From Acidobacteriota bacterium (GTDB taxonomy: Bacteria; Acidobacteriota; Thermoanaerobaculia; Thermoanaerobaculales; Sulfomarinibacteraceae), in NCBI GenBank assembly GCA_013152895.1, contig JAADFN010000047.1, positions 1,340 through 65,339 on the forward strand: 64,000 nucleotides of DNA, read 5' to 3'. Shown in pieces: positions 11,311-53,312 of the stretch. Under the pieces are notes generated by a model. The model had not been told where the DNA came from. It made no database searches and saw nothing but the letters and a program-made list of their open reading frames with translations. Made by a program: the position numbers and the translations under genes. Within the stretch, counting starts at the first letter, position 1. Each line of letters begins with the position of its first letter.

Positions 11311-12780
11311 CTACTGCTGCGCCATCAGGTCCTGGAACACGGGAGGCTTCGGGCTGTCCTCCTCGAGGAAGATGTGGCACGTGTCGCAATCCTGCGGAAT
11401 CGTGTGCTTCCCGTCGGCCGTGGACATCTCGTCGTCATGGCACCGCCAGCATCCTGGAAAATCCCGGTGGCCCAGGTTGTCGGGATGGGTCTTCCAGTCG
11501 GTTTTCATCGCGGGGAAATACGAGCGCCCATAGACCCGGGAAGCGGCATCTGCGGCTCGCCTCACGAGCTTCTCGCTCGCTGACCACACGGCCGGGTATT
11601 TCTGCTGGTAGTAGGTGAGGACCGCCCGCTGCACCGCGGTCATCCCCCCTTCGTGCGTCTTGTAACCCTTGTTGATCGCATCAAGAGCGATCTTCTTGAA
11701 GAAGGGAAGCTGCTGCATGTCGGGGTGCGCTGCAAGCACGTCGTCGAGGGCGTGATCCGGCTTCTTGAAGAGGTGCGTGGGCCGGTTGTGGCAGTCGATG
11801 CAGTCCATCACCCTGGCCTTGGCCTTGATCTCGGCGATCGGTGGAAGCTTGTCGCTCTTTCTCGTGTAGGTGCGGACCTGGCCGTCGGGAGTCGTGAGCT
11901 CGACCCACACGATCTTCTGCCTGTGCTTGTCTGCGGCGTAGTACATGATCTTGTTGTCCGAATAGATGTGCCACCAGTGGATGCCGCCGTGACGCCCCAG
12001 GTCCAGGCTGCCGCCACCGGTCTTGATCAGCATGGCGGTGTACGAGGCCGTGTTGTGCTCGTCGGTGTCGAAGGTCGCAAAGACCTTCAGCTTGTCGCCG
12101 TGGTGCTTCATCGGCCAGTGGCACTGTTCGCAGGTCTCTCGCGCCGGGCGCAGGTTGTGGATTGGCGTTTCGATCGGCCGGTGGTAGGTTCCCCACGCCG
12201 TTTTCCAGACCTGCCGGAGCCCGTCCAGCTTCGAGCGCACGAACCACGACGCGCCAGGACCGATGTGGCACTGGACACACCGGACGCGCGAGTGGGGCGA
12301 TTGCTGGTACGCGGTGTACTCCGGCTGCATCACTGTGTGGCACGTGGTTCCGCAGAAGCTCACCGTGTCCATCTCATCCACCGCCAGGTACGACGTGGAG
12401 CCGAGAATGATCGCGTTGACCGCAGTGAGCAACAGGACCGTCATGCCGATCTTCCGCAAGTGGGGATCGTTGAAGTCCAGTCGCGGATACACCGCGAGCT
12501 CCTCGAGGCTCGCCCCGGTGGCCAGCAGCTTCTTCCGGCGCCGCCACATGCCGATCGGCATGATGATGAGTCCGAGGACGAACAGGGCCGGAAGAATCAA
12601 ATACGCGAAAATCCCGACGTACGGGTTGCTGAAACCTCCCGAGAGCTCTGCGATCATGAAGATGATGATCGTCAACGCCGAGACCGTCGTAACGATAAAC
12701 CCGGTTATCGTGATCGGGTTGTTGGCGTAATTAAAGAGCCGCCGTATCGTGTTGTGCCTGGACCTGACCCGGTCGACCAT
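11311..12780 (-). CDS. ImcH-like inner-membrane multiheme cytochrome (NapC/NirT-type quinol dehydrogenase candidate)
   Basis: Three N-terminal TM helices, then a NapC/NirT-like segment (FCGTTCHTVMQPEY). Five CXXCH motifs (CVQCH, CEQCH, CIDCH, CWRCH, CDTCH) plus one CX3CH. A strong SD (AAGGGAGGA) precedes the ATG. Confidence 0.75.
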   Translation of the reverse strand: MVDRVRSRHNTIRRLFNYANNPITITGFIVTTVSALTIIIFMIAELSGGFSNPYVGIFAYLILPALFVLGLIIMPIGMWRRRKKLLATGASLEELAVYPRLDFNDPHLRKIGMTVLLLTAVNAIILGSTSYLAVDEMDTVSFCGTTCHTVMQPEYTAYQQSPHSRVRCVQCHIGPGASWFVRSKLDGLRQVWKTAWGTYHRPIETPIHNLRPARETCEQCHWPMKHHGDKLKVFATFDTDEHNTASYTAMLIKTGGGSLDLGRHGGIHWWHIYSDNKIMYYAADKHRQKIVWVELTTPDGQVRTYTRKSDKLPPIAEIKAKARVMDCIDCHNRPTHLFKKPDHALDDVLAAHPDMQQLPFFKKIALDAINKGYKTHEGGMTAVQRAVLTYYQQKYPAVWSASEKLVRRAADAASRVYGRSYFPAMKTDWKTHPDNLGHRDFPGCWRCHDDEMSTADGKHTIPQDCDTCHIFLEEDSPKPPVFQDLMAQQ

Positions 12781-12896
12781 AGCGTCCTCCCTTTACGAGC
12801 GCCGCCCCGTCGTCGGACGGGCGGCGGAGATTCTAGCAGGCCGGCACCACTTGCACAAACCTTCACAAATTGATGGCGTATTCGCGACGCTTCCGC

Positions 12897-12925
12897 TTGA
12901 AATGTCGTTGATGTCTGGATAGAGT
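12897..12925 (+). promoter_or_regulatory. putative sigma-70 promoter of the 23-heme cytochrome gene
   Basis: TTGAAA (12897-12902), 17 nt, TAGAGT (12920-12925) in the 195-nt divergent intergenic region. Confidence 0.4.
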
Positions 12926-12974
12926 AACGCACCGGACATGTGAAAACGTTCGACGCGAGAAAGCGAGGTGTTGC

Positions 12975-15900
12975 GTGGGGGATCCAGCCGGTAGAAAGAT
13001 GCACGCACGGCCAATTGTTACAATGAGAACTTGTGATACGCGGGCCAGGGCCGTACCTGCAATTCTGTCCGTGTTGCTTCTTTTCGCGTTGGCCGTTCCG
13101 GTTTTCGGCCAGGAGAACTCGGAGTGCATGGCGTGTCACGACGACAAGACCCTGACGGCGATGGTGGGCGGCCGGGAGGTTTCAGCGTACGTCGATATCG
13201 CGGCCTACCGGGGCTCGGTCCACGGACGTCTTCAATGTATCGCGTGCCATTCGGACCTCGAGGGCAGCGAGTTTCCCCACCCGGACACTCTGGAACCCGT
13301 CCGCTGCTCGAAGTGCCACGAGGACGTGGCGGCACAGCTCGCCAAGGGTCCCCACGGGAAGTGGGCGAAGACGCCGGGAGAGCCCTCGGCGAATTGTATC
13401 TCGTGCCACGGAACGCACCATGTGCTGGGACCGGATAACCCCGCCTCGCCGGTCAGCCCCGCGCACGTGAACCGCCTCTGTGCGCGCTGCCACGAGAGCG
13501 AGGTGGCCAAGTACCGGCGTGGGATTCATGCCGTGTCGAACGGGGCAAGACCGAATGCAGCATGCACCGATTGCCACCACGGTCACAGCATGGCGCAGCC
13601 GAAGACCGAGAGGGTGGAGCTCGAGACGTGCGGACGGTGTCACCCGGAAGAGGCGAAGCGGCAGGCGAAGAGCGTCCATGCGCGGGCGGCGTTGAAGGGC
13701 GATCCGCTGGCGCCGAGCTGTATCACGTGTCACAACCACCACGAGATCCTGCCCTCTTCGAATTCGAAGTCCCCGACCGCCAAGCTCAACGTTCCGATTC
13801 TCTGCGGCCGCTGTCACCACGAGGGATCGAAGGTTTCTTTGGAACGGAACATTCCGGAGAAGAACATCCTCAAGAACTACTCCCTGAGCATCCACGGCCA
13901 GGGCCTTTACAAGATGGGCCTTCGGGTGACGGCGGTGTGCACGTCCTGTCACAACGCGCATCTCATCCTCGACATCAACAACCCCGATTCCAGCATCAAC
14001 CCGGAGAACGTGGCCAAGACCTGCACCAAGTGTCATTCGCGCATCGAGCAGGTTCACGTGAAGGTGATCTCCGGCAAGCTGTGGGAGCAGGCGCCCCACG
14101 AGATTCCATCGTGCGTGGATTGCCATGCGCCACACAAGATCCGGCGGACGCCGGTCGATCTCCAGCGCGTGGCGAACAAGGAGTGCTTGCGCTGCCACGG
14201 GAACAAGAACCTCTCCATGACGAAGGGCGGTAAGAAGATCTCCCTGTACGTCGACGAGGCGGCGTTCAACGCGTCGACCCACGCGAAGGTGGCGTGCGCC
14301 CAGTGCCATTCCGAGGTCAGCACCGCGCTCAAACGCCCGTGCGCTGCGATCAAGCACAAGGTGGACTGCAGCACCTGCCACGCGGAGATCGTCGAGCGGT
14401 ACCAGACCGGCATCCACGGGAGGATGGCGGCCAAGGGAGATCCGAATGCGCCCACCTGCCTGACGTGCCACAGCGCCCATGCGACCCAGAGTCACGAGAT
14501 CCCGTCGTCGCCGACCTATGCCATGAACGTGCCAAAACTCTGTGGGAGGTGTCATGCGCAGGGGAAGCCCGTCGCCAAGGTTATCGAGAAACAGATTCCG
14601 CTGGCGAAGAATATCGTCAACAGCTACGTCGACAGCGTTCACGGCCAGGGCTTGCTCAAGGCCGGACTCGTGGTCGCGGCCAACTGTGGCTCCTGCCATA
14701 CGGCTCACCACGAGCTGCCGAAGAGTGATCCCGACTCGTCGGTGAACCCCGCCCACCTGGCAGACACCTGCGGTACGTGTCACCAGGGAATCGAGCGCGA
14801 GTTCAAGACGAGCATCCACTGGCCGGGCAACGCGAAGACGAAGAAAAAGCTCCCCACGTGCGAGGATTGTCACACCTCGCACACGATCAGCCGCATCACC
14901 GCCAAAGGCTTCCGGACACGAATGATGAACACATGTGGGAGGTGTCACCAGGAGGAAGCCAAGACGTACTTCGAGACGGTTCACGGGAAGGTCTCCCGGC
15001 TTGGCGACGTGGGGGCCGCCAAGTGCTACGACTGTCACGGTACCCATAACATCCTGCCGCCGGACGATCCCCGGTCGACGCTGAGCTACAAGAACGTGGT
15101 TCACACGTGCCAGAAGTGCCATCCCGGCGCGCACCGGCAGTTCGCGGGCTACCTGACGCACGCCACCCACCACAACCCGAAGAAATACCCGTACCTGTAC
15201 TACGCCTACCTGTTCATGACGATGTTGCTCGTCGGGACGCTTGCCTTCTTCCTGCTGCACACCGCGTTCTGGCTGCAGCGCTTGTGGCGGGACCGGGAGA
15301 GGTGGCGAGCCATGAAGGCGGCGAAACGCGACCGGTTCTACGTGCGGTTCAGCCTCACCCAGCGGATCATGCACCTGGTGATGCTCCTGTGCTTCTTCAC
15401 CTTGGCCATCACCGGTATGACGCTGAAGTTCTCGTACATGGGATGGGCGGTCCTGATCTCGCACCTGCTCGGCGGGTTCGCGGTGACGGGCATCCTGCAC
15501 CGCATCGCGGCCAGCATCCTCATCGCGCTCTTCGCCTTCCACATCGTCCAGATCGTCAAGCTCAAGCGGGCTTCGGGGAAGAGCTGGCTGAAGTTCATCT
15601 TCTCCAAGGACTCGATGATGTTCAACTTGAACGATGTCAAGCAGTTGTGGCAGCACTTCAAGTGGTTCATCGGACGCGGAGAGCTCCCCAAGTACGGGCG
15701 GTTCAGCTACTGGGAAAAGTTCGACTACTTCGCGGTATTCTGGGGCATCTTCGTGATCGGAAGCACGGGGCTCATGCTCTGGTTCCCGACCGTCTTTACC
15801 CTTATCTTCCCGGGATGGGTCATCAACGTGGCCACCATCATCCACAGTGACGAGGCCTTGCTGGCCGTGGCGTTCATCTTCACGATCCACTTCTTCAACA

Positions 15901-16154
15901 CGCACCTGCGGCCGGACAAGTTCCCGATGGACCCGGTGATCTTCACGGGGAGAGTCTCGCTGGAGGAGCTCGAGCACGACAAGCCGGAGGAGTACAGGGA
16001 TCTCATGGAAATGGAGCACCCGGAGAAGAAGATCGCCGGGCCGATGCCTAGCAGGAAGCTCCGTTGGATTCGCGTATTCGGGCTCACGGCGCTGACCGTT
16101 GGATTGGCGCTCATCTTCCTGATCCTCTACGCCATGGTGTTCGGGTACCGCTGA
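12975..16154 (+). CDS. 23-heme c-type cytochrome fused to a C-terminal b-type cytochrome membrane domain (CbcL-like architecture)
   Basis: A signal peptide (AILSVLLLFALAVPVFGQ), 23 CXXCH motifs up to aa 745, then about 6 TM helices with conserved His (RIMHLVMLL, ILHRIAASILIALFAFHIV, IIHSDEALLAVAFIFTIHFFNTHLRP), as in FdnI/HydC-type cytochrome b. The start could be ATG 12999 or 13023. Confidence 0.85.
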   Translation: MGDPAGRKMHARPIVTMRTCDTRARAVPAILSVLLLFALAVPVFGQENSECMACHDDKTLTAMVGGREVSAYVDIAAYRGSVHGRLQCIACHSDLEGSEFPHPDTLEPVRCSKCHEDVAAQLAKGPHGKWAKTPGEPSANCISCHGTHHVLGPDNPASPVSPAHVNRLCARCHESEVAKYRRGIHAVSNGARPNAACTDCHHGHSMAQPKTERVELETCGRCHPEEAKRQAKSVHARAALKGDPLAPSCITCHNHHEILPSSNSKSPTAKLNVPILCGRCHHEGSKVSLERNIPEKNILKNYSLSIHGQGLYKMGLRVTAVCTSCHNAHLILDINNPDSSINPENVAKTCTKCHSRIEQVHVKVISGKLWEQAPHEIPSCVDCHAPHKIRRTPVDLQRVANKECLRCHGNKNLSMTKGGKKISLYVDEAAFNASTHAKVACAQCHSEVSTALKRPCAAIKHKVDCSTCHAEIVERYQTGIHGRMAAKGDPNAPTCLTCHSAHATQSHEIPSSPTYAMNVPKLCGRCHAQGKPVAKVIEKQIPLAKNIVNSYVDSVHGQGLLKAGLVVAANCGSCHTAHHELPKSDPDSSVNPAHLADTCGTCHQGIEREFKTSIHWPGNAKTKKKLPTCEDCHTSHTISRITAKGFRTRMMNTCGRCHQEEAKTYFETVHGKVSRLGDVGAAKCYDCHGTHNILPPDDPRSTLSYKNVVHTCQKCHPGAHRQFAGYLTHATHHNPKKYPYLYYAYLFMTMLLVGTLAFFLLHTAFWLQRLWRDRERWRAMKAAKRDRFYVRFSLTQRIMHLVMLLCFFTLAITGMTLKFSYMGWAVLISHLLGGFAVTGILHRIAASILIALFAFHIVQIVKLKRASGKSWLKFIFSKDSMMFNLNDVKQLWQHFKWFIGRGELPKYGRFSYWEKFDYFAVFWGIFVIGSTGLMLWFPTVFTLIFPGWVINVATIIHSDEALLAVAFIFTIHFFNTHLRPDKFPMDPVIFTGRVSLEELEHDKPEEYRDLMEMEHPEKKIAGPMPSRKLRWIRVFGLTALTVGLALIFLILYAMVFGYR

Positions 16155-26108: not shown

Positions 26109-26722
26109 GTTTTTTGCGTCCCGGCGCCGGTTGGATCGAAGTCATCACCGGGCCGATGTTCTCTGGAAAATCGGAAGAGCTGATCCGGAGATTGCGGCGT
26201 GCGGCCATCGCGCGGCTCCGTCTCCAGGTTTTCAAGCCGGTCGTCGATGACCGGTTCAGCGTCGACGAGGTGGTTTCCCATTCGCACTGGCGGGTTCCAT
26301 CCGAACCGGTCAAGACGTCCGAGGAGATTCTCGAACGTATCGATCCAAGAACCGAGGTGGTCGGCATCGACGAGGCGCAGTTCTTCGACGGCGAGCTTCC
26401 TCGCGTCTGCTCCCACCTGGCGGATCTCGGCAAGAGGGTGATCGTGGCCGGGCTCGACACCGATTACCGTGGCGTGCCGTTCGGTCCCATGCCGGAGCTT
26501 CTCGCGGTCGCGGAGCAGGTTCAGAAAGTCACCGCCATCTGCGCACGCTGCGGGGCGCCGGCAAGCTTTACGCAACGACTCTTTCCGTCCGATGAACGGG
26601 TTGTCGTGGGGGCCGGGGATCTCTACGAGGCGCGGTGTCGGCGTTGTCACGAGCCGGATGGGCCGGTTCATATCGATGAAAGATGGCTCTTCACGCCCGA
26701 GGGGAGCCAGGAGTCATGTTGA
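26105..26722 (+). CDS. tdk: thymidine kinase
   Basis: A P-loop ([14 protein letters not shown]), DEAQFF, and a C-terminal zinc ribbon (CARCG...CRRCH). Confidence 0.9.
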
Positions 26723-26749
26723 ATTTCTCAATGGATGGCGGCCGCATGG

Positions 26750-26777
26750 TTGACAAGCATGTGAAATTATGTACATA
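26750..26777 (+). promoter_or_regulatory. putative sigma-70 promoter of the 11-heme cytochrome/cytochrome b pair
   Basis: TTGACA (26750-26755), 16 nt, TACATA (26772-26777), followed by the SD GGTGGAGGAGG and ATG 26797. Confidence 0.45.
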
Positions 26778-26796
26778 TGCAGGGTGGAGGAGGCCG

Positions 26797-28023
26797 ATGA
26801 GAAAATCCGCAGCTGTAGCGGTCGTATTCCTTGCCGTTTCCGGAGTGGCTCTGGGACAGTCGCTGAACTGTTCCCAATGCCATTCCGATCCCCAGGCGCT
26901 TGCAGCCGCCGGCCAAGCCATTGGCAAGACGTTCACCAAGACGCAGGTCAACGCGATGATCATCCACCTCGAGGGATGCCCGACCCACATGGACCTCACG
27001 TGCATCTCCTGCCACGCCGACATTGACAGGTTCCCGCATCCGCAGGAAACGCATCTGGCCAACCCGTGCGTCGCCTGTCACCCGGACGTTGCCAAACAGA
27101 TGAATCACTCGGTACACCGGGACCCTCTTGGGGGAACGAGCTATGTGCTCCAGTGCTGGGACTGCCACGGGGCCCACCACATTTATCCTGCGAACGATCC
27201 GCGTTCGCCGATGTACCCGTACAACGTGAGCGGCGTGTGCCTGAAATGCCATAACCAGCAGAAGTACCTCAACGGTGTCCACGGCCAGGGGGTCGAGCTG
27301 GCGGGATTGACCGCGGCAGCGACGTGCATCTCCTGCCACGGGTACCACACGATCAAGTCTGTCAAGGCCGTGGGATCGCGGACCTCCCGGAGGCAGATTT
27401 CGTTTACCTGTGGCACGTGCCACGCGAAGATCGCCGAGGAGTACAGGAAGAGCGTTCACGGTGCGGCCCTGATGGCCACCGACAACCCGGACGTTCCAAC
27501 GTGCGTGGACTGCCACCAGGCTCACCAGACCGCTGATCCGCGGAGTCCGAAGTTCCGGGCTGAGAGCCCCAGGCTCTGTGGGAAGTGCCATGCGAACGCC
27601 AAGCTGATGAAGAAGTACGGGATCTCGACCGACGTCTTCCAGACCTACGTGACCGACTTCCATGGAACGACGGCTGAGCTTTTCGAGGACGTCACGCCGG
27701 ACCAGCCGTTCAACCAGGCGGTCTGCTACGACTGCCACGGATACCACGATGTGTCCAGGGTCACCGGCGTGGGCAAGAAGAAAATCGAGGAGAACCTGCT
27801 CAGGCGGTGTCGCCGTTGTCATCCGGGGGCGACGACGAAATTCCTGGGGGCATGGACGGGTCACTTCATTCCAAGTCCGACGAAATACCCGTGGATCTAC
27901 TACGTGAAGCTGTTCTACAGGGTCGCGATCCCGAGCATCATCGGGTTCTTCCTGCTCTTCATTGCCACCGACGTCTACCGGAGTTATCGACGACGTCATC
28001 GTGGCGGGGGAGGTGCGTCATGA
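26797..28023 (+). CDS. undecaheme c-type cytochrome with a C-terminal TM anchor
   Basis: A signal peptide (AAVAVVFLAVSGVALGQ), 11 CXXCH motifs, and a C-terminal helix (YPWIYYVKLFYRVAIPSIIGFFLLFIA). Clearly paralogous to the c-type units of the 1059-aa protein. Confidence 0.85.
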   Translation: MRKSAAVAVVFLAVSGVALGQSLNCSQCHSDPQALAAAGQAIGKTFTKTQVNAMIIHLEGCPTHMDLTCISCHADIDRFPHPQETHLANPCVACHPDVAKQMNHSVHRDPLGGTSYVLQCWDCHGAHHIYPANDPRSPMYPYNVSGVCLKCHNQQKYLNGVHGQGVELAGLTAAATCISCHGYHTIKSVKAVGSRTSRRQISFTCGTCHAKIAEEYRKSVHGAALMATDNPDVPTCVDCHQAHQTADPRSPKFRAESPRLCGKCHANAKLMKKYGISTDVFQTYVTDFHGTTAELFEDVTPDQPFNQAVCYDCHGYHDVSRVTGVGKKKIEENLLRRCRRCHPGATTKFLGAWTGHFIPSPTKYPWIYYVKLFYRVAIPSIIGFFLLFIATDVYRSYRRRHRGGGGAS

Positions 28024-33413: not shown

Positions 33414-35267
33414 ATGGGCCGGTTGAGATACGTGGGCGCTGCTCTTGTGGCGGTCGTGCTCGCCGTGTCGCCGCTCGCTGCGCAGACGTGGCACGGCGAG
33501 ATCGGGCTCGGTTACGCGTGGCAGAACGCGGCGGGGAGCGAAAACAGCTTCCGGAGTCAACAGGCGCTGGACCAGGGTTTCGTGCTCGAGAACCTGGATC
33601 TCGCGATGAAGACCGGGCAGCGGCGGCGCTTCCATCTCCAGGCGTGGGGGTTCGGTCAGGCCGAGCCGACCGAGCACGGCCGCCTGAGCTTCGCGCCGGG
33701 AGAGAATTGGTCGATGGCTGTGAGCTACGACCGGCGGGACACTTTCTTTGGACTCTCCGGGTCTGACCTGGGAGCCAGGACCGACCGCTGGAACATCACT
33801 CGCTGGGGTGGCAGGGTCACGTGGACCGGCTGGAGCGCGGCGAAGCTGACGCTAAACGTCCGTCACGTCGAGCGCAACGGCACGGTCTTCCGGCCTTTCT
33901 ACGGCCTCAACAACCTCTACCCGCTGCGCGTTGGGCTCGACGAGACGATGGATCAGGGGAGTCTGCGGCTCGTGACCAGGAGCCTCCCCGTGGTGCTCGA
34001 TGTCGAGGCGATCTACTCGACCTACGACCGGCGGAATCGCTGGTCACCGGCGGGGAGCTTCTCTCTCGACCCCACCGACCTCGACCGCCTCACTGATGTG
34101 GGAACCACGATGCATGAGAGCCAGGACGTGCCCTCCGGCCGGGCTACGGCGAGCTATGCACGGGGCCGTGTCGAGACGGTTTTCTCCGTCCTGTGGAGCT
34201 CGGCGGACCTCGATGCGACCGGGGCGGGGTGGAAAGACTTCGCCGTGGACGAGGGACGGGTCGGTACGATCCAGTTCCTGGATGACCTGGTGGGATCCGC
34301 GTCAACGGACACGCTGGCCGGCGCCTACCGCCTCGCGCTTCGGCTCGGCGGGCCCTGGAGACTCCGTTTCTCGGCGGATTATCGCGACGCCAGCTCCGAC
34401 TCAAGCCTGCTCGGGGAGCGGCTGCTCAAGGCCCTCAACCCGACCGGCGCCGCGCTGGAGCTGAGCACGCCGATCGACGACACCGGGCGGTTCGACACGA
34501 CCGACACGAGCGGCCGCCTCGAGGTCGAGTACCGCACAGACCGGTGGTCCGTCTGGGCTGGCGGATTGGCGGCGAGCCGCGATGTCACCTGGCGTCTCAC
34601 GAAAGATGGAAACCGGGTGGATGTCAGCCGGGACTCCGGCGGGGCCGTGGCCGGGGCCTCGATCAACCTCGGGCGGTGGTTGAGGGGAAGCGTCGAGTAC
34701 GAGCATGGGTCGTTCCAGGAGTACGTCTTCCGGACGGACCCGAACACGGTCAACCGGGTGACCGTCAGGATCAGCTCCCACCTCAACAAGACATGGGTTC
34801 TCAACGTCCACGGGCGGTACGAGGGTTCGGACAACCCCCGCAGCATTTCTGATCTTTCGACCAACTCGACGGCCATCGGCGCAGCCCTGATGTGGTCGCC
34901 GGCCGGGGGAAACGGGGCGTTCGGCGTGGATGCATCGATCCTCGATCTCTCAACTGACACCGGCCTCATCCTCCCGACCGGGGATCATGGGACCTCGCTT
35001 TACGACACGTCGGTCCGGCGGCTGTCCACGTTCGCGAGGATCGGTGACAAATCACGGCGGCTGACCTGCCGGTTGGCGTGGCTGACGGACCAGGGGGAAA
35101 CGTGGCCGGTGGACGCGTGGAACGCGGCCGTGCGTTTCGATTTCACGGTGTTCGGCCGGCTCATGGCTGGCGTTTTCGGGCAGTACTGGTCGTACGATGA
35201 GAAACGGGCCCGGGTGGACGACTTTAGCGTCACCCGGTACGGCCTCGCTCTGCACTGGAGCTTCTGA
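33414..35267 (+). CDS. outer-membrane beta-barrel protein, MtrB/PioB/OmbB-like cytochrome-associated porin candidate
   Basis: A signal peptide (AALVAVVLAVSPLAAQT), a 617-aa alternating-strand composition rich in G/S/D/R/Y/W, and a C-terminal ...YGLALHWSF. The stop overlaps the start of a decaheme cytochrome gene. Confidence 0.65.
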   Translation: MGRLRYVGAALVAVVLAVSPLAAQTWHGEIGLGYAWQNAAGSENSFRSQQALDQGFVLENLDLAMKTGQRRRFHLQAWGFGQAEPTEHGRLSFAPGENWSMAVSYDRRDTFFGLSGSDLGARTDRWNITRWGGRVTWTGWSAAKLTLNVRHVERNGTVFRPFYGLNNLYPLRVGLDETMDQGSLRLVTRSLPVVLDVEAIYSTYDRRNRWSPAGSFSLDPTDLDRLTDVGTTMHESQDVPSGRATASYARGRVETVFSVLWSSADLDATGAGWKDFAVDEGRVGTIQFLDDLVGSASTDTLAGAYRLALRLGGPWRLRFSADYRDASSDSSLLGERLLKALNPTGAALELSTPIDDTGRFDTTDTSGRLEVEYRTDRWSVWAGGLAASRDVTWRLTKDGNRVDVSRDSGGAVAGASINLGRWLRGSVEYEHGSFQEYVFRTDPNTVNRVTVRISSHLNKTWVLNVHGRYEGSDNPRSISDLSTNSTAIGAALMWSPAGGNGAFGVDASILDLSTDTGLILPTGDHGTSLYDTSVRRLSTFARIGDKSRRLTCRLAWLTDQGETWPVDAWNAAVRFDFTVFGRLMAGVFGQYWSYDEKRARVDDFSVTRYGLALHWSF

Positions 35268-36118
35268 TGATGCGGCGGACGATAACGATGCTGGTTGGAA
35301 TCTTGGTTGGCCTGACGGCCCTGATCGTGGTCCCCCCGCTTCGGGCTGGCGAGCCGGTCACGAGCGAAACCTGCGCAACCTGCCACGTCGACGTGGCAGC
35401 AACATTCCTCGCCGGGCCCCACGGCCGGGCGATGGCGAGGGTCTCTCACAAGATCGTGGAGCGTGCGTGCGTCGCCTGTCACGGCCCCGGTGCAGCCCAT
35501 ATCAACGATCCGTCCACCACGAACATCGTACGGCGGCCCACGAGCACGGTCTGCGTGCAGTGCCACGCGGATCGCCAGGCCGGCCTCGAGCTTGCCACCC
35601 CGGCCCACGTTCGCAACGGGGTGGCGTGTCTGGACTGTCACCAGCCGGGCCATACCCCGTCCAACGTGGCCCACATGCTCAGGGCCGAGCCGGTCAAGCT
35701 CTGCGGAAGCTGCCACACGACCGAGGCGGCGTCGTTCAACCTCCCGTACGCTCATCGTGAGGGGGCCAACCGACCCTTCGCGTGCACCGAGTGCCATGAT
35801 CCTCACGGGCAGAGCGAGCGCGGCCGCCTGAAGATGCTCTCCAACGGTGGCGTCTGCATCAGGTGCCACACGGGGAAAGCCGGGCCGTTCGTGTATCCCC
35901 ACCCACCGCGAGAGGTGGACGGGTGCGTGGCCTGCCACGAGCCGCACGGTTCGATGAACCCGTGGCAGCTCACGAGGCGCAACGTCAGCGACCTCTGCCT
36001 GGAGTGTCACGCCGATGTGGCCGCGTTTCATGACCTGACCAAGGCGCGCTACCGTGCGTGCCAGACATGTCACCAGGGGATCCACGGCTCGAACCGTGAT
36101 CCAAGACTTTTCGAGTAA
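35267..36118 (+). CDS. periplasmic decaheme c-type cytochrome (MtrA/DmsE-like)
   Basis: 283 aa with 10 CXXCH motifs (CATCH, CVACH, CVQCH, CLDCH, CGSCH, CTECH, CIRCH, CVACH, CLECH, CQTCH), about one heme per 28 aa. Has a signal/TM segment. The ATG overlaps the porin TGA. Confidence 0.85.
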   Translation: MMRRTITMLVGILVGLTALIVVPPLRAGEPVTSETCATCHVDVAATFLAGPHGRAMARVSHKIVERACVACHGPGAAHINDPSTTNIVRRPTSTVCVQCHADRQAGLELATPAHVRNGVACLDCHQPGHTPSNVAHMLRAEPVKLCGSCHTTEAASFNLPYAHREGANRPFACTECHDPHGQSERGRLKMLSNGGVCIRCHTGKAGPFVYPHPPREVDGCVACHEPHGSMNPWQLTRRNVSDLCLECHADVAAFHDLTKARYRACQTCHQGIHGSNRDPRLFE

Positions 36119-36145
36119 CCCCCCTACGGGAAAAAGGAGGAAAAG

Positions 36146-37957
36146 ATGAGGCGTGTCACGATTCTTTCAACCGTTATGGTCCTCGGTATCGCCGCGGCCG
36201 CCTCGGCTGGCGGGCCCCAGCTGCGCAGCAGCCACAAGGTTCGGGCGGTGAAGCTGGTCCGTCCGGTGACCGCCGCCGCCGTCGCCCAGGGGGTGCAGAG
36301 GCTCGAATCCGTATACACGACCCAGCAGCTGGAAAAGGGCGTCTACGTCGGCGCGGAGTTCTGCCTCGCCTGCCACAATAAACCGGGTTTGCGCAACACG
36401 AAGCACTTCGAGGCGCTCCGCCGGCCGATGGTTCAGTACTCGCTGATACCGGGGAGGGGAGTGGTCGCGGACTACGACCAGAACGGTGTTGACGACTTCG
36501 AGCAGGGACTGGACTTCAATACGATCTCCTCGGTCTTCGATCCGTACAAACCCAACGCGCCGATCCTGTCCGTGGAAAACGGAACCTATTACATCACGAT
36601 CGGGCAGGACAAGATGCCGGTGGTGGCAACCCAGGGTGGAACGGGTGACTGGAAGCAGCGCTTCCTGGTTCGCGTCCCGGTGTCTGATACGGCCGACGGG
36701 TACTCCGTCGATAACTATGTGTCGCCGATCCAGTTCAACGAGAAGACCCACCAGTACGTGCTGTACCACGCCGAGGCATGGTACGACAGCAATCACCAGC
36801 CGAAGTTCAACCCCTCGACGACCGCGTCCGAGCTCGCGGCCGGGAACTCGCGCCAGTACTCTGAAAAGTGCATCGGCTGTCATACGACGGGAATCAAGAA
36901 TCTGCAGAAAACGGCCAGCGGCGAGTGGAAGTACACCCCCTACATCGCGGTGCTGTACAACCAGGACGACCCGAGCTACTTCGACTACGATCACGACGGC
37001 AACGTCGACATCCTCAACATCCAGTGCGAGGCCTGCCACGGCCCGGGCTCCGCCCACATCCTTGGCGGTGGCGATCCCTCCAAGATCGTCAACCCGGCGA
37101 AGCTCGACCGCCAAGGTCAGGACGAGATCTGCGAGCAGTGCCACGTACGGGTGAAGTCGGTGCCCAACGGGACCCACGACTGGCCGTACAACGACGCCAC
37201 GAACACCCAGTGGTATCCCGGCATCGGCCAGCCGCTTTCCGACTTCTGGACCGATGCGGCCGGCCGCTGGCCCGATGGAAAGACCTCGAAGCAGCATCAC
37301 CAGCAGTTCCAGGACTTCTCGACGAGCGCGATGTTCGCGAGCACCGACGACGAGGTCACGTGCATCACGTGCCACGATGCTCATGGAAGCTCGAACGAGC
37401 ACATGATCGTCGAAGAGCGGGTGGACGATGGGGTCACCTTCAAAACCGCGGCGGACAACGACACGCTGTGTCTCTCCTGCCACGCCGACGACTTCGGCAT
37501 CGAACCGGAAATGGTTGCCGATTATGCCAACAACGTCGAGGCGATTGGCGAGGCGGTGAGCAAGCACACGCATCACCCCTATGCCCCGGACCGGAAGATG
37601 GGGCTTTCGCGGTGCACCAAGTGCCACATGCCGAAAGTGGCCAAGTCGGCCATCAACTTCGACATCCATTCCCATACCTTCGAGGCGATTCCACCTGAAA
37701 AGACCCTCGCCTACCAGGACCAGGGCGGGATGCCGAACTCGTGTGCAGTGAGCTGCCACTCGCTCAAGGTCAACCTCTGGGGCTTTGGGATCACCCCCAA
37801 CATCGGGGTGTGGAACAGCGTCTTCGAGGTGAATAACGCGAACGAGCTGATGGAGTACTACGGTCCAGGCGGCGCCTGGTGGGACACGGACGAATCGTCC
37901 GAGCAGAGCCAGACCGAGGCGCACGCGAAGATCATCGAGCAGCTCAACCAGAAGTAG
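36146..37957 (+). CDS. secreted multiheme c-type cytochrome (7 CXXCH plus 1 CX3CH)
   Basis: A signal peptide (STVMVLGIAAAASAGG). CLACH, CIGCH, CEACH, CEQCH, CITCH, CLSCH, CTKCH and CAVSCH. Long heme-free stretches between hemes 1 and 2 suggest an extra non-heme domain. Confidence 0.8.
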   Translation: MRRVTILSTVMVLGIAAAASAGGPQLRSSHKVRAVKLVRPVTAAAVAQGVQRLESVYTTQQLEKGVYVGAEFCLACHNKPGLRNTKHFEALRRPMVQYSLIPGRGVVADYDQNGVDDFEQGLDFNTISSVFDPYKPNAPILSVENGTYYITIGQDKMPVVATQGGTGDWKQRFLVRVPVSDTADGYSVDNYVSPIQFNEKTHQYVLYHAEAWYDSNHQPKFNPSTTASELAAGNSRQYSEKCIGCHTTGIKNLQKTASGEWKYTPYIAVLYNQDDPSYFDYDHDGNVDILNIQCEACHGPGSAHILGGGDPSKIVNPAKLDRQGQDEICEQCHVRVKSVPNGTHDWPYNDATNTQWYPGIGQPLSDFWTDAAGRWPDGKTSKQHHQQFQDFSTSAMFASTDDEVTCITCHDAHGSSNEHMIVEERVDDGVTFKTAADNDTLCLSCHADDFGIEPEMVADYANNVEAIGEAVSKHTHHPYAPDRKMGLSRCTKCHMPKVAKSAINFDIHSHTFEAIPPEKTLAYQDQGGMPNSCAVSCHSLKVNLWGFGITPNIGVWNSVFEVNNANELMEYYGPGGAWWDTDESSEQSQTEAHAKIIEQLNQK

Positions 37958-51950: not shown

Positions 51951-52142
51951 TGTAACGATCCCCGCCCCGCCGGTGCGCCGCAGGATCAGGAGCCTGCCCG
52001 GTTCACCGCCTCCCTCCTCCGGCCGGCGACGTGCCGCGCGCCGCGGCCGCTGCGTTACAATCCCTGTGCAGTGCCCGGCGGCGTGCCGGGGAGTTTTCGG
52101 CTCCTTCCGGCAGTGTGACGGCCGGGCGCGGGGAGGTGGCGT

Positions 52143-53312
52143 ATGCGGAGAAGACAGTGGATCGTGGTTTCAAGCGTCTTGGCCATGGGAGTTGCCGTCG
52201 TGGCCGCTCAAACGCGGGGGACATCGCCCGCGAAAGTGGCGCCGTCCCTTCACGTCGATCACGAGGTTCTCGACGTTGGCCAGGTGTTGGCCGGACAGGA
52301 CGTCGTTGGGACCTTCGTTTTCACGAACACCGGGAAACGGCCCATTCGGATCCTGCGAGCGGCCCCTTCTTGAGGGTGCACAGTCGCCGAGCACGACTCG
52401 GTGATCCCGGCAGGTGGGTCGGGAAAGCTCGTAGCAACGGTTCACACGCACGCCCAGGAGAATGGACATATTTCCAAGACGATTCGCGTCGTCACGGACG
52501 ATCCCGGTCTCAAACAGCTTCTCCTGAGGCTCAACGCGACCGTCATCGCGCCGATCGAGGTACGCCCATCGTCACGGATATGGCTCAGTACCTGGGAAGA
52601 TGTCCCCGCCAAGGTGCACCTCCTGCTTCACAGGCAGGATGGGAAGCCGTTGAAGATCATGGCGTTGCAGGTTGAGCCCCCGGGGCTTATGAAACTGACG
52701 TGGTCCAGCGTGACCTCGGCCGAGCGCGTACGCGGATTGCGGGCGGGGCCCGGTGATGTTTGGCTGACGGCCAGCGTGCAGGCGGTTCCGCATGCGATCT
52801 CCCGGAGTGGGAAGGTCCACATCACGACGAACGATCCGCGTCAGAAGACGTTCATCCTGCCGCTCTTTGTCCAGGTTCGGCCCACGCTGGAGGCCGTCCC
52901 GCCCCAGTTGCGGTTCTTCGTTGGGGACAGGGGTCCTCAAGAGTACTGGAGGGTCGTCGAGCTGCGGGCGCACGGAAGCACTCGTTTCCATATCCGGTCG
53001 GTTCAAACCGATCGTCCCGCCCTCTTCAAGGTCGTGATCATGCCGCCAGGACTGGGAACATCCGAAAAGATCAGGATCGGTCTCGATCGTGATGCTGCGT
53101 TGAAGGTCGCCGCCGGTACGTTTCGTTCCACGATGACCATCAAGACCGATGACGCGAAACACCCCGTGATGACCATCCCGGTCATTGTCACGCGCCAGCG
53201 GGCGATGCGGGTGCGGCCCACATTCCGGGTGCTTCGGCCGAAAACGGCGCCGGCCCAGAAAAAACCGGGCGAGCCGCAGCTTCCGCCGCCGGGATCGGGG
53301 CCGGGGTTTTGA
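52143..53312 (+). CDS. secreted DUF1573-repeat protein with an in-frame TGA (52371-52373) at the first Cys of the SCGCT motif. Either a candidate selenoprotein or a disrupted gene.
   Basis: Track ORFs 52143..52373 and 52401..53312 share one frame. The read-through product is ...FVFTNTGKRPIRILRAAPS-[TGA]-GCTVAEHDSVIPAGGSGKLVATV..., which is the DUF1573 core. It has a signal peptide (VVSSVLAMGVAVVAAQT), and two further Ig-like repeats follow. Confidence 0.6.
52384..52404 (+). promoter_or_regulatory. SECIS-like stem-loop downstream of the in-frame UGA
   Basis: UCGCCGAG-CACGA-CUCGGUGA: an 8-bp stem with one G-U pair, starting 11 nt after the UGA. The apical loop lies at positions +22 to +26 from the U of UGA. 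Confidence 0.3.

What the first reader, a model, noticed from the sequence alone, without database searches (positions are those of the whole stretch)
52143..53312. In-frame UGA at the first Cys of the conserved SCGCT motif of a secreted DUF1573 protein, with a SECIS-like hairpin
**What the sequence shows.**
- ORFs 52143..52373 and 52401..53312 are in the same frame.
- They are interrupted by a single TGA (52371-52373).
- Read-through gives ...NTGKRPIRILRAAPS-[UGA]-GCTVAEHDSVIPAGGSGKLVATV...

**Family context.** As I recall the family (PF07610), DUF1573 domains have the core ...NtG..PL.I..v..SCGCT......i.PG..g.I.v... The stop therefore replaces the first Cys of a C-G-C pair. A Cys/Sec pair at a conserved column is the classic signature of a selenoprotein.

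**Supporting structure.**
- The 939 nt downstream stay open and domain-like, with two more Ig-like repeats.
- A stem-loop UCGCCGAG-CACGA-CUCGGUGA begins 11 nt after the UGA.
- Its apical loop sits at +22 to +26, similar to the geometry of the E. coli fdhF SECIS.

I am not aware of DUF1573 being a described selenoprotein family.

**Alternatives.** A recent TGC-to-TGA nonsense mutation, or a base-call error. This assembly shows other defects, although those are indels rather than substitutions.
Basis: partly seen in the sequence, partly recalled or inferred. Interest (0 to 1): 0.72.

Follow-up and report, generated by a model that had tools for sequence, protein, structure and literature searches.

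The report
Mis-annotated selenocysteine protein (DUF1573/OS_HP2 type)
The apparent stop codon inside this gene is almost certainly a selenocysteine codon in an exported protein of unknown function; the protein family has been listed as a predicted selenoprotein since 2007, so this is a real gene that databases cut short, not a new kind of selenoprotein.

Summary
A single in-frame TGA (52371-52373) splits one 389-codon gene (52143-53312).

The selenocysteine reading is strongly supported:
- All 122 orthologous loci examined (28-73% identity, mostly Acidobacteriota MAGs and marine-sediment metagenomes) have TGA in this column, with an open, conserved upstream frame.
- More distant homologues, and one orthologue in the same gene neighbourhood, have Cys there.
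- Synonymous sites are nearly frozen across codons +5 to +18 after the UGA. This span holds two conserved hairpins, and the Cys orthologue has lost both the constraint and the hairpins.

The novelty claim is wrong. DUF1573 with a U-G-C motif is already listed as a prokaryotic selenoprotein family (OS_HP2, Zhang & Gladyshev 2007; NCBIfam NF041425).

New points:
- This three-domain Acidobacteriota clade scores below the NCBIfam cutoff and is truncated in public annotation.
- Its recoding element is a tandem hairpin, and neither half meets every criterion of the bacterial SECIS consensus.
- Sec77 and Cys79 are the protein's only Sec/Cys residues.

Sec machinery could not be checked for this genome, and function remains unknown.

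The parts
52132..52136 (+). Shine-Dalgarno-like GGAGG, 6 nt upstream of the ATG at 52143
   Evidence: Read directly from the sequence. It supports 52143 as the true start, not the GTG at 52401 used in the public annotation.
52143..53312 (+). Complete selenoprotein gene: 389 codons including Sec77, stop TGA at 53310-53312
   Evidence: Searches give the frame. One search shows DUF1573 spanning the TGA. Searches show the same split gene in 122 loci.
52143..52208 (+). Predicted N-terminal signal peptide (MRRRQWIVVSSVLAMGVAVVAA|Q). Inferred; the cleavage site was not computed.
   Evidence: Basic n-region followed by a hydrophobic stretch. 77 of 78 full-length orthologues have a hydrophobic segment (at least 10 of 12 residues) N-terminal to the domain. 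No signal-peptide predictor was available.
52251..52538 (+). DUF1573 (PF07610) Ig-like domain 1, residues 37-132, containing the U-G-C motif
   Evidence: 64.8 bits. (NF041425 OS_HP2_seleno, 83 bits, residues 43-134). (beta-sandwich in the homologue model).
52371..52373 (+). In-frame UGA = selenocysteine codon (Sec77)
   Evidence: TGA in 120/120 motif-retrieved loci and in 2/2 loci retrieved independently. Aligned with Cys in P0045, P0056, P0113 and others. TGT in the positional orthologue.
52377..52379 (+). Cys79 (TGC), the partner of Sec77 in U-G-C and the only Cys in the protein
   Evidence: 60 of 78 orthologues contain only this pair. The codon is TGC in 76 and TGT in 2 of 78.
52384..52404 (+).
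   Evidence: -12.8 kcal/mol, z -3.3. 96.3% of cells paired across 92 distinct sequences. Covariation at two pairs: 15-33 (GC 51, CG 15, unpaired 26) and 20-28 (AU 89, GC 3, with E->G and S->P amino-acid changes). Codons GCC, GAG, GAC and TCG are invariant.
52405..52424 (+).
   Evidence: 98.3% of cells paired, almost no variation. (-11.7 kcal/mol, z -3.2). Codons CCG, GCA, GGT, GGG, TCG and GGA are almost invariant at four- to six-fold degenerate sites. Shares GCAGGU with the E. coli fdhF SECIS loop.
52551..52877 (+). Ig-like domain 2 (about residues 137-245)
   Evidence: Boundaries transferred from the AlphaFold model of Cys homologue P0056 through alignment A3. Approximate.
52881..53192 (+). 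Ig-like domain 3 (about residues 247-350)
   Evidence: Approximate.
53193..53309 (+). Basic, proline-rich C-terminal tail (residues 351-389), poorly conserved
   Evidence: variable length and sequence among orthologues.

Best explanation
window:52143-53312 is one gene for an exported selenoprotein of about 389 residues. It has a signal peptide, three tandem Ig-like beta-sandwich domains and a basic tail.

The UGA at 52371-52373 is decoded as selenocysteine (Sec77). Together with Cys79 it forms a U-G-C motif in a loop of the first (DUF1573) domain. These are the only Sec/Cys residues in the protein, so the motif is most likely a single redox-active or chalcogen/metal-binding centre that cycles through a selenenylsulfide.

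Recoding is directed by an RNA element embedded in the next 18 codons, made of two adjacent hairpins:
- H1 is at nt 14-34 from the U of UGA, with its loop at 22-26, the same position as in E. coli fdhF.
- H2 is at nt 35-54 and has an fdhF-like A-G-G-U loop.

Shown here: the conserved UGA, the Sec/Cys pairing, the RNA-level constraint and its loss in a Cys orthologue, and the domain architecture.

Inferred: that SelB/tRNA-Sec do the decoding, which hairpin binds SelB, export from the cytoplasm, and the redox or sulfur-related role.

The gene belongs to the already-described DUF1573/OS_HP2 class of predicted selenoproteins. It represents an Acidobacteriota clade that current annotation models miss.
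For: 1. TGA is conserved at this column in 120/120 loci retrieved by motif and in 2/2 retrieved independently by exact protein look-up, one of them fully syntenic with the window. These sequences are 28-73% identical to the window protein, and the upstream frame is open and conserved in all of them.

2. An exhaustive, motif-independent search with the C-terminal 303 aa found that 91 of the 94 representative clusters with E <= 1e-10 lack the N-terminal domain, i.e. they are truncated by gene callers at the TGA or are fragments.

3. Cys occupies the column in full-length homologues (KPSCGCTVAEL and similar). It also does in P0113, which sits in the same neighbourhood as the Sec forms (LarA_N, cupin, Fer4 upstream; cytidylate kinase, S1, HIT downstream) and has TGT.

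4. Normalised synonymous-codon entropy is 0.25 over codons +1 to +18 against 0.76 elsewhere (Mann-Whitney P = 1e-6). The collapse runs from codon +5 to +18 and ends sharply at +19.

5. Both hairpins are conserved: 97.2% of cells paired against 24-53% when partners are slid by 1-3 columns. H1 has two covarying pairs, one of which changes two amino acids to keep the pair.

6. In the Cys orthologue the invariant codons have drifted (GCC->GCT, GAC->GAT, GCA->GCG, GGT->GGA) and the hairpins are degraded (H1 5/8 pairs, H2 5/7). Four other Cys forms show no common hairpin and free synonymous variation.

7. TGA is the normal stop in this genome (36 of 53 crude gene calls), so a local signal is needed for recoding.

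8. The family is already catalogued as a selenoprotein with motif UGC, and the protein hits NF041425 'OS_HP2 family (seleno)protein'.
Against: - No selA, selB, selD or tRNA-Sec is present in the 64-kb window or in 1.08 Mb of flanks of related loci. These cover only a small fraction of each genome, so this is absence of a test, not a negative result.
- No second selenoprotein gene was found in the flanks.
- Neither hairpin alone meets all four criteria of the published bSECIS consensus. H1 has its conserved G at loop position 4. H2 lies 37-38 nt from the UGA, at or just beyond the 16-37-nt limit.
- No Rfam match.
- The NF041425 score (83 bits) is below the curated cutoff (100 bits).
- There is no experimental evidence of Se incorporation for any member of the family in the papers read.
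- Most loci were retrieved through the VIPAGGSG peptide, which overlaps H2. That set was therefore biased towards Sec forms, although mitigate this.
Confidence: 0.92

Rival explanations
1. The TGA is a recent nonsense mutation or a sequencing/assembly error, and the gene is a pseudogene or was mis-read.
For: A single-base change from TGC or TGT would produce it. The public annotation treats the downstream part as a separate hypothetical protein.
Against: The same TGA is present in 122/122 independent assemblies across sequences only 28-73% identical. Both halves remain under purifying selection. An RNA-level constraint follows the codon.
Confidence: 0.01
2. The UGA is a genuine, conserved stop. 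The locus would then make a peptide of about 76 residues plus a separately initiated protein of about 300 residues, and the conserved hairpins would serve termination-reinitiation coupling or another regulatory role.
For: Gene callers find GTG/ATG starts shortly after the TGA in many orthologues. No Sec machinery could be shown for these genomes.
Against: The split would cut the DUF1573 beta-sandwich in the middle and separate U/C from its G-C partner. The downstream 'starts' vary in position and codon (VIPAGG, MAEYDS, MIAKVH). The stop aligns with Cys in continuous homologues, including a positional orthologue. The exported downstream part would lack its signal peptide.
Confidence: 0.03
3. 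The UGA is read through as a standard amino acid (Cys, Trp or Gly) by near-cognate or suppressor decoding stimulated by the downstream structure, without selenocysteine.
For: Stop-codon read-through stimulated by downstream structure exists in other systems (general knowledge). The hairpins do not fit the bSECIS consensus perfectly. Sec machinery is unverified here.
Against: The column is Cys in homologues, and this family is catalogued as Sec/Cys. H1 has the fdhF position and H2 the fdhF-like GGU loop. TGA is the main ordinary stop in the window, so there is no code reassignment. If Cys were wanted, TGC would do the job, as in P0113, without a 42-nt constrained element. Acidobacteriota are documented Sec users.
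Confidence: 0.04

Closest known systems
OS_HP2 / 'DUF1573 domain-containing protein' selenoprotein family (Zhang & Gladyshev 2007, PMC1976440; reviews PMC9312934 and PMC13188914; NCBIfam NF041425)
   Same: DUF1573 (PF07610) domain with Sec as the first residue of a U-G-C motif and Cys homologues at that column. Best NCBIfam hit, matching profile positions 6-97 of 98. Predicted only by computation, with unknown function.
   Different: Scores 83 bits against a cutoff of 100, so it lies outside the curated family boundary. The original family was two deltaproteobacterial symbiont sequences with no Cys homologue known at the time. This clade is Acidobacteriota (Thermoanaerobaculia, Sulfomarinibacteraceae, Holophagae), has three Ig-like domains, and is truncated in public records. 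I could not obtain OS_HP2 sequences to compare architecture or SECIS directly.
E. coli fdhF bacterial SECIS
   Same: The element lies in the coding sequence directly after the UGA. The H1 loop is at nt 22-26 against 22-25 in fdhF, and H1 starts 10 nt after the UGA. The H2 loop region GCAGGU is identical to the fdhF loop region.
   Different: Here the fdhF-like position and the fdhF-like loop sequence are on two separate, adjacent hairpins. No bulged U is evident. SelB binding was not tested.
Consensus bSECIS model (bSECISearch; summarised in PMC13188914, Fig. 2)
   Same: Loop sizes (5 and 6-8 nt), stems (6-8 bp) and stabilities (-12.8 and -11.7 kcal/mol) fall within the model. H1 spacing is 18 nt. 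The H2 loop has G at position 2 followed by G and U.
   Different: H1 has its invariant G at loop position 4, not position 1-2. H2 is 37-38 nt from the UGA, at or just beyond the 16-37-nt window. The review notes that a subset of bSECIS elements do not fit the model.
Cys-form three-domain DUF1573 proteins encoded with rhodanese and MauE/DoxX (e.g. P0056, P0065)
   Same: Same signal peptide plus three-Ig-domain layout, with S-C-G-C-T at the same place. In P0056 the mature protein has only the two motif cysteines.
   Different: Only 22-25% identical. They carry Cys, not Sec, and have no hairpins. They sit in an overlapping-gene operon with a rhodanese and a MauE/DoxX membrane protein, which is absent around the Sec forms.
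SelD (selenophosphate synthetase) N-terminal G-x-G-C/U-G-C-K loop
   Same: The same C-G-C spacing occurs in E. coli SelD (HGAGCGCK). From general knowledge, the first Cys of this loop is the position occupied by Sec in Sec-type SelD/SPS2 enzymes, so it is another U-G-C/C-G-C Sec/Cys pair, one that handles selenium.
   Different: Unrelated fold and a cytoplasmic enzyme. This is a resemblance of motif only and was not tested.

Membership tests
Pfam PF07610 (DUF1573) | HMM score at or above the gathering threshold | tested here: met
   64.8 bits against 26.1, residues 37-132, profile positions 2-96 of 98 (with U replaced by C).
Pfam PF07610 (DUF1573) | Conserved S-C-G-C-T core motif | tested here: met
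   S-U-G-C-T in the window. S/T/G-U-G-C-T/A in all orthologues, and SCGCT in the Cys homologues.
NCBIfam NF041425 OS_HP2 family (seleno)protein | Score at or above the curated cutoff (100 bits) | tested here: not met
   83.0 bits. The Cys orthologue P0113 scores 68.4 and P0056 scores 54.3. This is a relative outside the curated boundary.
NCBIfam NF041425 OS_HP2 family (seleno)protein | Sec (or Cys) as the first residue of U-G-C in the DUF1573-type domain | tested here: met
Bacterial selenoprotein (comparative-genomics criteria of Zhang & Gladyshev) | In-frame TGA conserved in at least two different homologous sequences | tested here: met
   122 loci and 92 distinct downstream sequences.
Bacterial selenoprotein (comparative-genomics criteria) | Cys-containing homologues aligning with the TGA | tested here: met
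   P0045, P0056, P0057, P0061, P0067, P0113, P0158, P0160 and others. P0113 is a positional orthologue with TGT.
Bacterial selenoprotein (comparative-genomics criteria) | SECIS-like stem-loop immediately downstream of the UGA | tested here: met
   Two conserved hairpins within nt 14-54, with covariation in H1, synonymous-site constraint, and loss in the Cys forms.
Bacterial selenoprotein (mechanistic definition) | selA, selB, selC (tRNA-Sec) and selD present in the same genome | not testable with these tools
   None in the 64-kb window or in 1.08 Mb of related flanks. The phylum includes Sec users.
Bacterial selenoprotein (mechanistic definition) | Selenium actually incorporated at the UGA position | not testable with these tools
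   Needs 75Se labelling or mass spectrometry. No such data for this family appear in the papers read.
Consensus bSECIS model (PMC13188914, Fig. 2) | Apical loop of 3-9 nt and upper stem of 4-16 bp | tested here: met
   H1 has a 5-nt loop and a 6-8-bp stem. H2 has a 6-8-nt loop and a 5-7-bp stem.
Consensus bSECIS model (PMC13188914, Fig. 2) | At least one G in the first two loop positions | tested here: inconclusive
   Not met by H1: its loop is usually Y-N-Y-G-A (one of 92 sequences has GUCGA), with the invariant G at position 4. Met by H2: loop A-G-G-U-G-G.
Consensus bSECIS model (PMC13188914, Fig. 2) | 16-37 nt between the UGA and the apical loop | tested here: inconclusive
   18 nt for H1 (met). 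37 nt for H2 if the loop is taken as 8 nt, or 38 nt if the C41-G48 pair closes it (borderline).
Consensus bSECIS model (PMC13188914, Fig. 2) | MFE of -7.5 kcal/mol or lower | tested here: met
   H1 -12.8 and H2 -11.7 kcal/mol.

The most novel reading that the evidence does not exclude
The recoding signal is a bipartite bacterial SECIS that the current consensus model does not describe. H1 sits at the ribosome-proximal, fdhF-like position and acts as a spacer or pause element. The SelB-recognised GGU loop is carried by a second hairpin about 40 nt from the UGA. The product would be an exported Ig-fold protein whose single U-x-C centre acts as a periplasmic or cell-surface carrier or reductant for sulfur, selenium or metal species. 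It would be the selenium counterpart of the Cys-form proteins that are encoded with a rhodanese and a MauE/DoxX membrane protein.
Probability: 0.2. Interest if true: 0.55.

Novelty: new member of a known kind. Interest (0 to 1): 0.38.

Why it matters
- **Annotation.** At least 120 genes in Acidobacteriota MAGs and sediment metagenomes, including the deposited record for this window (NOZ78277.1), are split into a discarded N-terminal fragment of about 75 aa and a 'hypothetical protein' of about 300 aa with no domain hit. The curated NCBIfam model misses the clade by 17 bits. Lowering the cutoff or adding a sister model would fix this.
- **Sec decoding in the lineage.** The data indicate that Thermoanaerobaculia and Sulfomarinibacteraceae, which are abundant in marine sediments, decode Sec. 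I found no paper saying so.
- **SECIS biology.** The tandem-hairpin element and its natural Cys-orthologue control give a clean system for asking what a non-E. coli bacterial SECIS needs.
- **Function.** A protein whose only redox-capable residues are one Sec and one Cys, on a simple secreted Ig scaffold, is an attractive minimal model for Sec-versus-Cys chemistry.

None of this changes the picture of what selenoproteins are.

Tried and rejected
- **Sec machinery.** ARAGORN and Rfam on the window, and ARAGORN on 42 genome loci, found no tRNA-Sec. Pfam scans of 53 crude gene calls in the window found no SelA, SelB or SelD. tblastn of E. coli SelA/SelB/SelD against 1.08 Mb of window plus loci found nothing. 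These cover too little of any genome to count as negative evidence.
- **A second selenoprotein.** Scans for other conserved in-frame TGAs in the window and flanks returned only out-of-frame shadows and adjacent gene pairs.
- **Known RNA family.** Rfam at a permissive threshold around the site gave only chance-level hits.
- **Solved relatives.** No PDB sequence match. The fold search returned only generic tandem Ig/ASH proteins (HYDIN-type ciliary proteins, S-layer proteins, cadherins) and one P. gingivalis protein of unknown function, so there is no functional transfer.
- **Structure of the window protein itself.** I modelled the Cys homologue P0056 instead.
- **Genomic context as a guide to function.** Neighbours of the Sec forms are variable and mostly housekeeping. 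The rhodanese/MauE-DoxX partners of the Cys forms are not near the Sec forms.
- **Literature.** Searches for Sec use in Thermoanaerobaculia or Sulfomarinibacter found nothing relevant. The supplement of the 2026 hydrogenase paper is not held. Liu et al. 1998 is not held.
- **Folding energy as evidence.** The 66-nt region is not significantly more stable than shuffles (z = -1.2), so I relied on conservation.
Full report
**1. The observation**

- An ATG at 52143 is preceded by GGAGG six bases upstream. It opens a frame that runs to 53312 and is interrupted only by TGA at 52371-52373.
- The read-through product is 389 residues: ...KRPIRILRAAPS-U-GCTVAEHDSVIPAGGSGKLVATV...
- With the stop replaced by Cys, the protein matches Pfam DUF1573 (PF07610) at 64.8 bits against a gathering score of 26.1, over residues 37-132. 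It also matches the related HYDIN/VesB-like Ig model. The domain therefore spans the stop, and cutting the protein there would cut a beta-sandwich in half.
- The hairpin UCGCCGAG-CACGA-CUCGGUGA is at 52384-52404.

**2. Is the TGA real and conserved?**

A protein search gave the first strong sign. The 24 closest relatives (100% down to 31% identity) all cover only about 70-78% of the query, are about 300 aa long and carry no Pfam domain. Their sequences begin VIPAGGSG..., MAEYDSVIPAGG... and similar, just after the motif. The more distant full-length hits read KPSCGCTVAEL.

I then fetched DNA for 42 loci from species-representative genomes and 78 from metagenomes.
- The genome loci are almost all Acidobacteriota MAGs: Thermoanaerobaculia, Ca. 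Sulfomarinibacteraceae and Holophagae.
- In all 120 loci the codon ten codons upstream of the IPAGGSG anchor is TGA. The frame upstream is open and encodes the conserved first half of the DUF1573 domain.
- The 78 distinct full-length sequences are 28-73% identical to the window protein, median 34%.

That retrieval used the VIPAGGSG peptide, which could favour Sec forms, so I ran three checks that do not depend on it.
- An exhaustive HMMER search of 1.84 billion representative proteins with the C-terminal 303 residues found 94 clusters at E <= 1e-10. Of these, 91 lack the N-terminal domain.
- Two orthologues were fetched by exact protein identity. One has an IPPGG variant that the motif cannot match. 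The other is fully syntenic with the window. Both have TGA, and in both the gene caller had produced a separate upstream ORF of 74-76 aa.
- The window's own gene is deposited as NOZ78277.1, 'hypothetical protein GXP48_03665 [Acidobacteria bacterium]', in the truncated 303-aa form.

A recent mutation or a base-call error is excluded.

**3. The Sec/Cys pair**

Full-length homologues with the same signal-peptide plus three-domain layout have Cys at the column (alignment A3; further examples).

The most informative is P0113.
- It scores E = 1e-23 among the Sec forms.
- It reads KPSCGCTVADYDRVIPAGGTGEL.
- It lies in the same neighbourhood as the Sulfomarinibacter-type Sec loci: rhomboid, AMMECR1, LarA_N, cupin and Fer4 upstream; cytidylate kinase, S1, HU and HIT downstream.
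- It is therefore a positional orthologue in which TGA is TGT.

**4. The RNA element**

An alignment of 92 distinct 66-nt segments starting at the UGA is 90% identical on average, far more than the proteins would require. RNAalifold and my own pair counts give two adjacent hairpins.
- H1 is columns 14-21/27-34, loop 22-26.
- H2 is columns 35-41/48-54, loop AGGUGG.
- 97.2% of cells are paired. When the 3' partners are slid by 1-3 columns, 24-53% are paired.

H1 has two covarying pairs.
- Pair 15-33 has G-C in 51 sequences, C-G in 15 and is unpaired in 26. Both positions are third bases of Val codons.
- Pair 20-28 has A-U in 89 and G-C in 3. The change turns Glu into Gly and Ser into Pro, so the protein changed while the pair was kept. 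This may represent only one or two evolutionary events.
- H2 hardly varies, so it offers no covariation for or against.

The clearest evidence is at synonymous sites.
- For columns with a conserved amino acid, normalised codon entropy averages 0.25 over codons +1 to +18 and 0.76 elsewhere (P = 1e-6).
- The collapse begins at codon +5 (GCC in 68 of 68). It runs through GAG, GAC, TCG, ATC, CCG, GCA, GGT, GGG, TCG, GGA and AAG, and ends abruptly at +19, where Leu uses four codons.
- Codons -14 to +4 vary normally.
- The H1 codons lie outside the peptide used for retrieval, so their invariance cannot be a search artefact.

Controls:
- Four Cys-form genes show different predicted folds and free synonymous variation in the corresponding codons.
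- The Cys positional orthologue differs from the Sec consensus at exactly the frozen sites (GCC->GCT, GAC->GAT, GCA->GCG, GGT->GGA, TCG->ACC). It keeps only 5/8 pairs in H1 and 5/7 in H2.
- That is a single sequence, but it behaves as expected if the constraint exists only to serve the UGA.

Each hairpin is stable on its own: -12.8 and -11.7 kcal/mol, z about -3.2. The 66-nt stretch as a whole is not unusual for this G+C-rich sequence (z = -1.2).

**5. Comparison with known SECIS elements**

The published bacterial consensus asks for four things:
- a 3-9-nt loop on a 4-16-bp stem;
- a G in the first two loop positions;
- 16-37 nt between the UGA and the loop;
- MFE of -7.5 kcal/mol or lower.

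H1 meets all of these except the G position, because its invariant G is the fourth loop base. H2 meets all of them except that it lies 37-38 nt from the UGA, at the limit.

I confirmed the E. coli fdhF sequence against more than 5,400 genomes. Its loop is at nt 22-25 from the U of UGA. The published minimal element is ATCGGTTGCAGGTCTGCACC.

H1 therefore has the fdhF position (loop at 22-26, stem starting 10 nt after the UGA), and H2 has the fdhF loop sequence (GCAGGU). Which one binds SelB cannot be decided by computation. I treat the pair as one conserved unit. Rfam has no model that matches.

**6. The protein**

An AlphaFold model of the Cys homologue P0056, built on alignment A3, is confident (pLDDT 88.8). 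It shows three tandem beta-sandwiches, with the C-G-C in a loop just before a strand of the first domain.

Fold relatives are structural Ig/ASH proteins: ciliary HYDIN-type proteins, S-layer proteins, cadherins, and one P. gingivalis protein of unknown function. No enzyme is among them, and there is no PDB sequence match.

Other features:
- Sec77 and Cys79 are the only Sec/Cys residues in the window protein.
- 60 of 78 orthologues have only this pair.
- 77 of 78 have an N-terminal hydrophobic segment.

From this I infer an exported protein with one selenenylsulfide-forming or ligand-binding centre.

A functional hint comes from the Cys-form homologues. They are encoded in an overlapping-gene operon with a rhodanese and a MauE/DoxX membrane protein, which suggests sulfur or thiol chemistry. 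These partners are not near the Sec forms, whose neighbours are variable and mostly housekeeping. The hint is therefore weak. The literature says nothing about DUF1573 function.

**7. What is already known**

Two reviews list 'DUF1573 domain-containing protein, PF07610, motif UGC' among prokaryotic selenoprotein families and cite Zhang & Gladyshev 2007. In that paper it is OS_HP2: two sequences from Olavius symbionts, with no Cys homologue known at the time.

NCBIfam holds NF041425, 'OS_HP2 family (seleno)protein'. It is the window protein's best hit, but at 83 bits against a cutoff of 100.

The family-level claim is therefore not new. This clade is a close relative outside the curated boundary, which explains the truncated annotations.

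**8. What could not be tested**

No Sec machinery is in the window or in the flanks I hold. The rest of these genomes is out of reach with the tools.

The phylum does include Sec users: Occallatibacter riparius has three selenoproteins, and Acidobacteriota MAGs carry Sec-type hydrogenases. I found nothing specific to Thermoanaerobaculia.

TGA is the commonest ordinary stop in the window (36 of 53 crude gene calls), so there is no code reassignment and a local signal is required.

**9. Verdict**

This is a genuine selenoprotein gene (confidence about 0.92) of an already-catalogued kind, in a clade that databases mis-annotate. Interest is moderate to low for the family claim. The unusual tandem-hairpin recoding element and the natural Cys control add some value.

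Noticed in passing
L127:7001-9044 (also L123, L126): Cys-form three-domain DUF1573 homologues are followed, with overlapping stop/start codons, by a rhodanese (PF00581) gene and a MauE/DoxX membrane-protein gene. This looks like a conserved small operon and suggests sulfur or thiol chemistry for the C-G-C motif.
   Followed up: partly
window:52401: The GTG used as the start of the deposited 303-aa 'hypothetical protein' (NOZ78277.1) lies inside the 3' arm of hairpin 1. Gene callers also emit a separate 74-76-aa upstream ORF in related contigs (L129:695-919, L130:5716-5946).
   Followed up: yes
window:4596-7429, 11314-16151, 26683-28020, 35267-37954: The window holds many multihaem c-type cytochrome genes. 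Several have MtrC/MtrF-like domains, and one 1059-aa protein is fused to a cytochrome b561-like domain. A Rieske/cytochrome b pair is also present. This points to anaerobic respiration or extracellular electron transfer in this Acidobacteriota MAG.
   Followed up: no
window:30953-31465: A gap of about 510 nt with no credible ORF follows a class-I fumarate hydratase (Fumerase) gene.
   Followed up: no
L011, L020, L029: Three loci with typical Sec-form genes are labelled Deltaproteobacteria, Chondromyces sp. and Ca. Methylomirabilota, while all the others are Acidobacteriota. This could be mis-binning, mislabelling or horizontal transfer.
   Followed up: no
L122:6966-8009 (E. coli selD): E. coli SelD begins ...HGAGCGCK, the same C-G-C spacing as the DUF1573 motif. 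From general knowledge, the first Cys of this loop is the residue replaced by Sec in Sec-type selenophosphate synthetases.
   Followed up: no
L004, L005, L008 and their metagenome counterparts (L044, L052, L060, L120): In these loci hairpin 1 carries CCGGG/CCCGG in place of CCGAG/CUCGG. This is a compensated A-U to G-C change that alters the protein (AEHDS to TGHDP or AGYDP).
   Followed up: partly
Sulfomarinibacter-type loci, about 0.2-1.3 kb upstream of the gene (e.g. L056, L059, L115): In 34 of 57 loci the gene immediately upstream, on the same strand, encodes a 4Fe-4S (Fer4/AF_0155-like) protein of about 255 aa, itself preceded by a small cupin. The window and its closest relatives (L001, L130) instead have a DinG-type helicase upstream and an M29 aminopeptidase downstream.
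   Followed up: partly
L034:10811-11108: ARAGORN calls a tmRNA with an unusual short tag peptide (APAHRPPA*) near one orthologue. This may be a mis-call.
   Followed up: no
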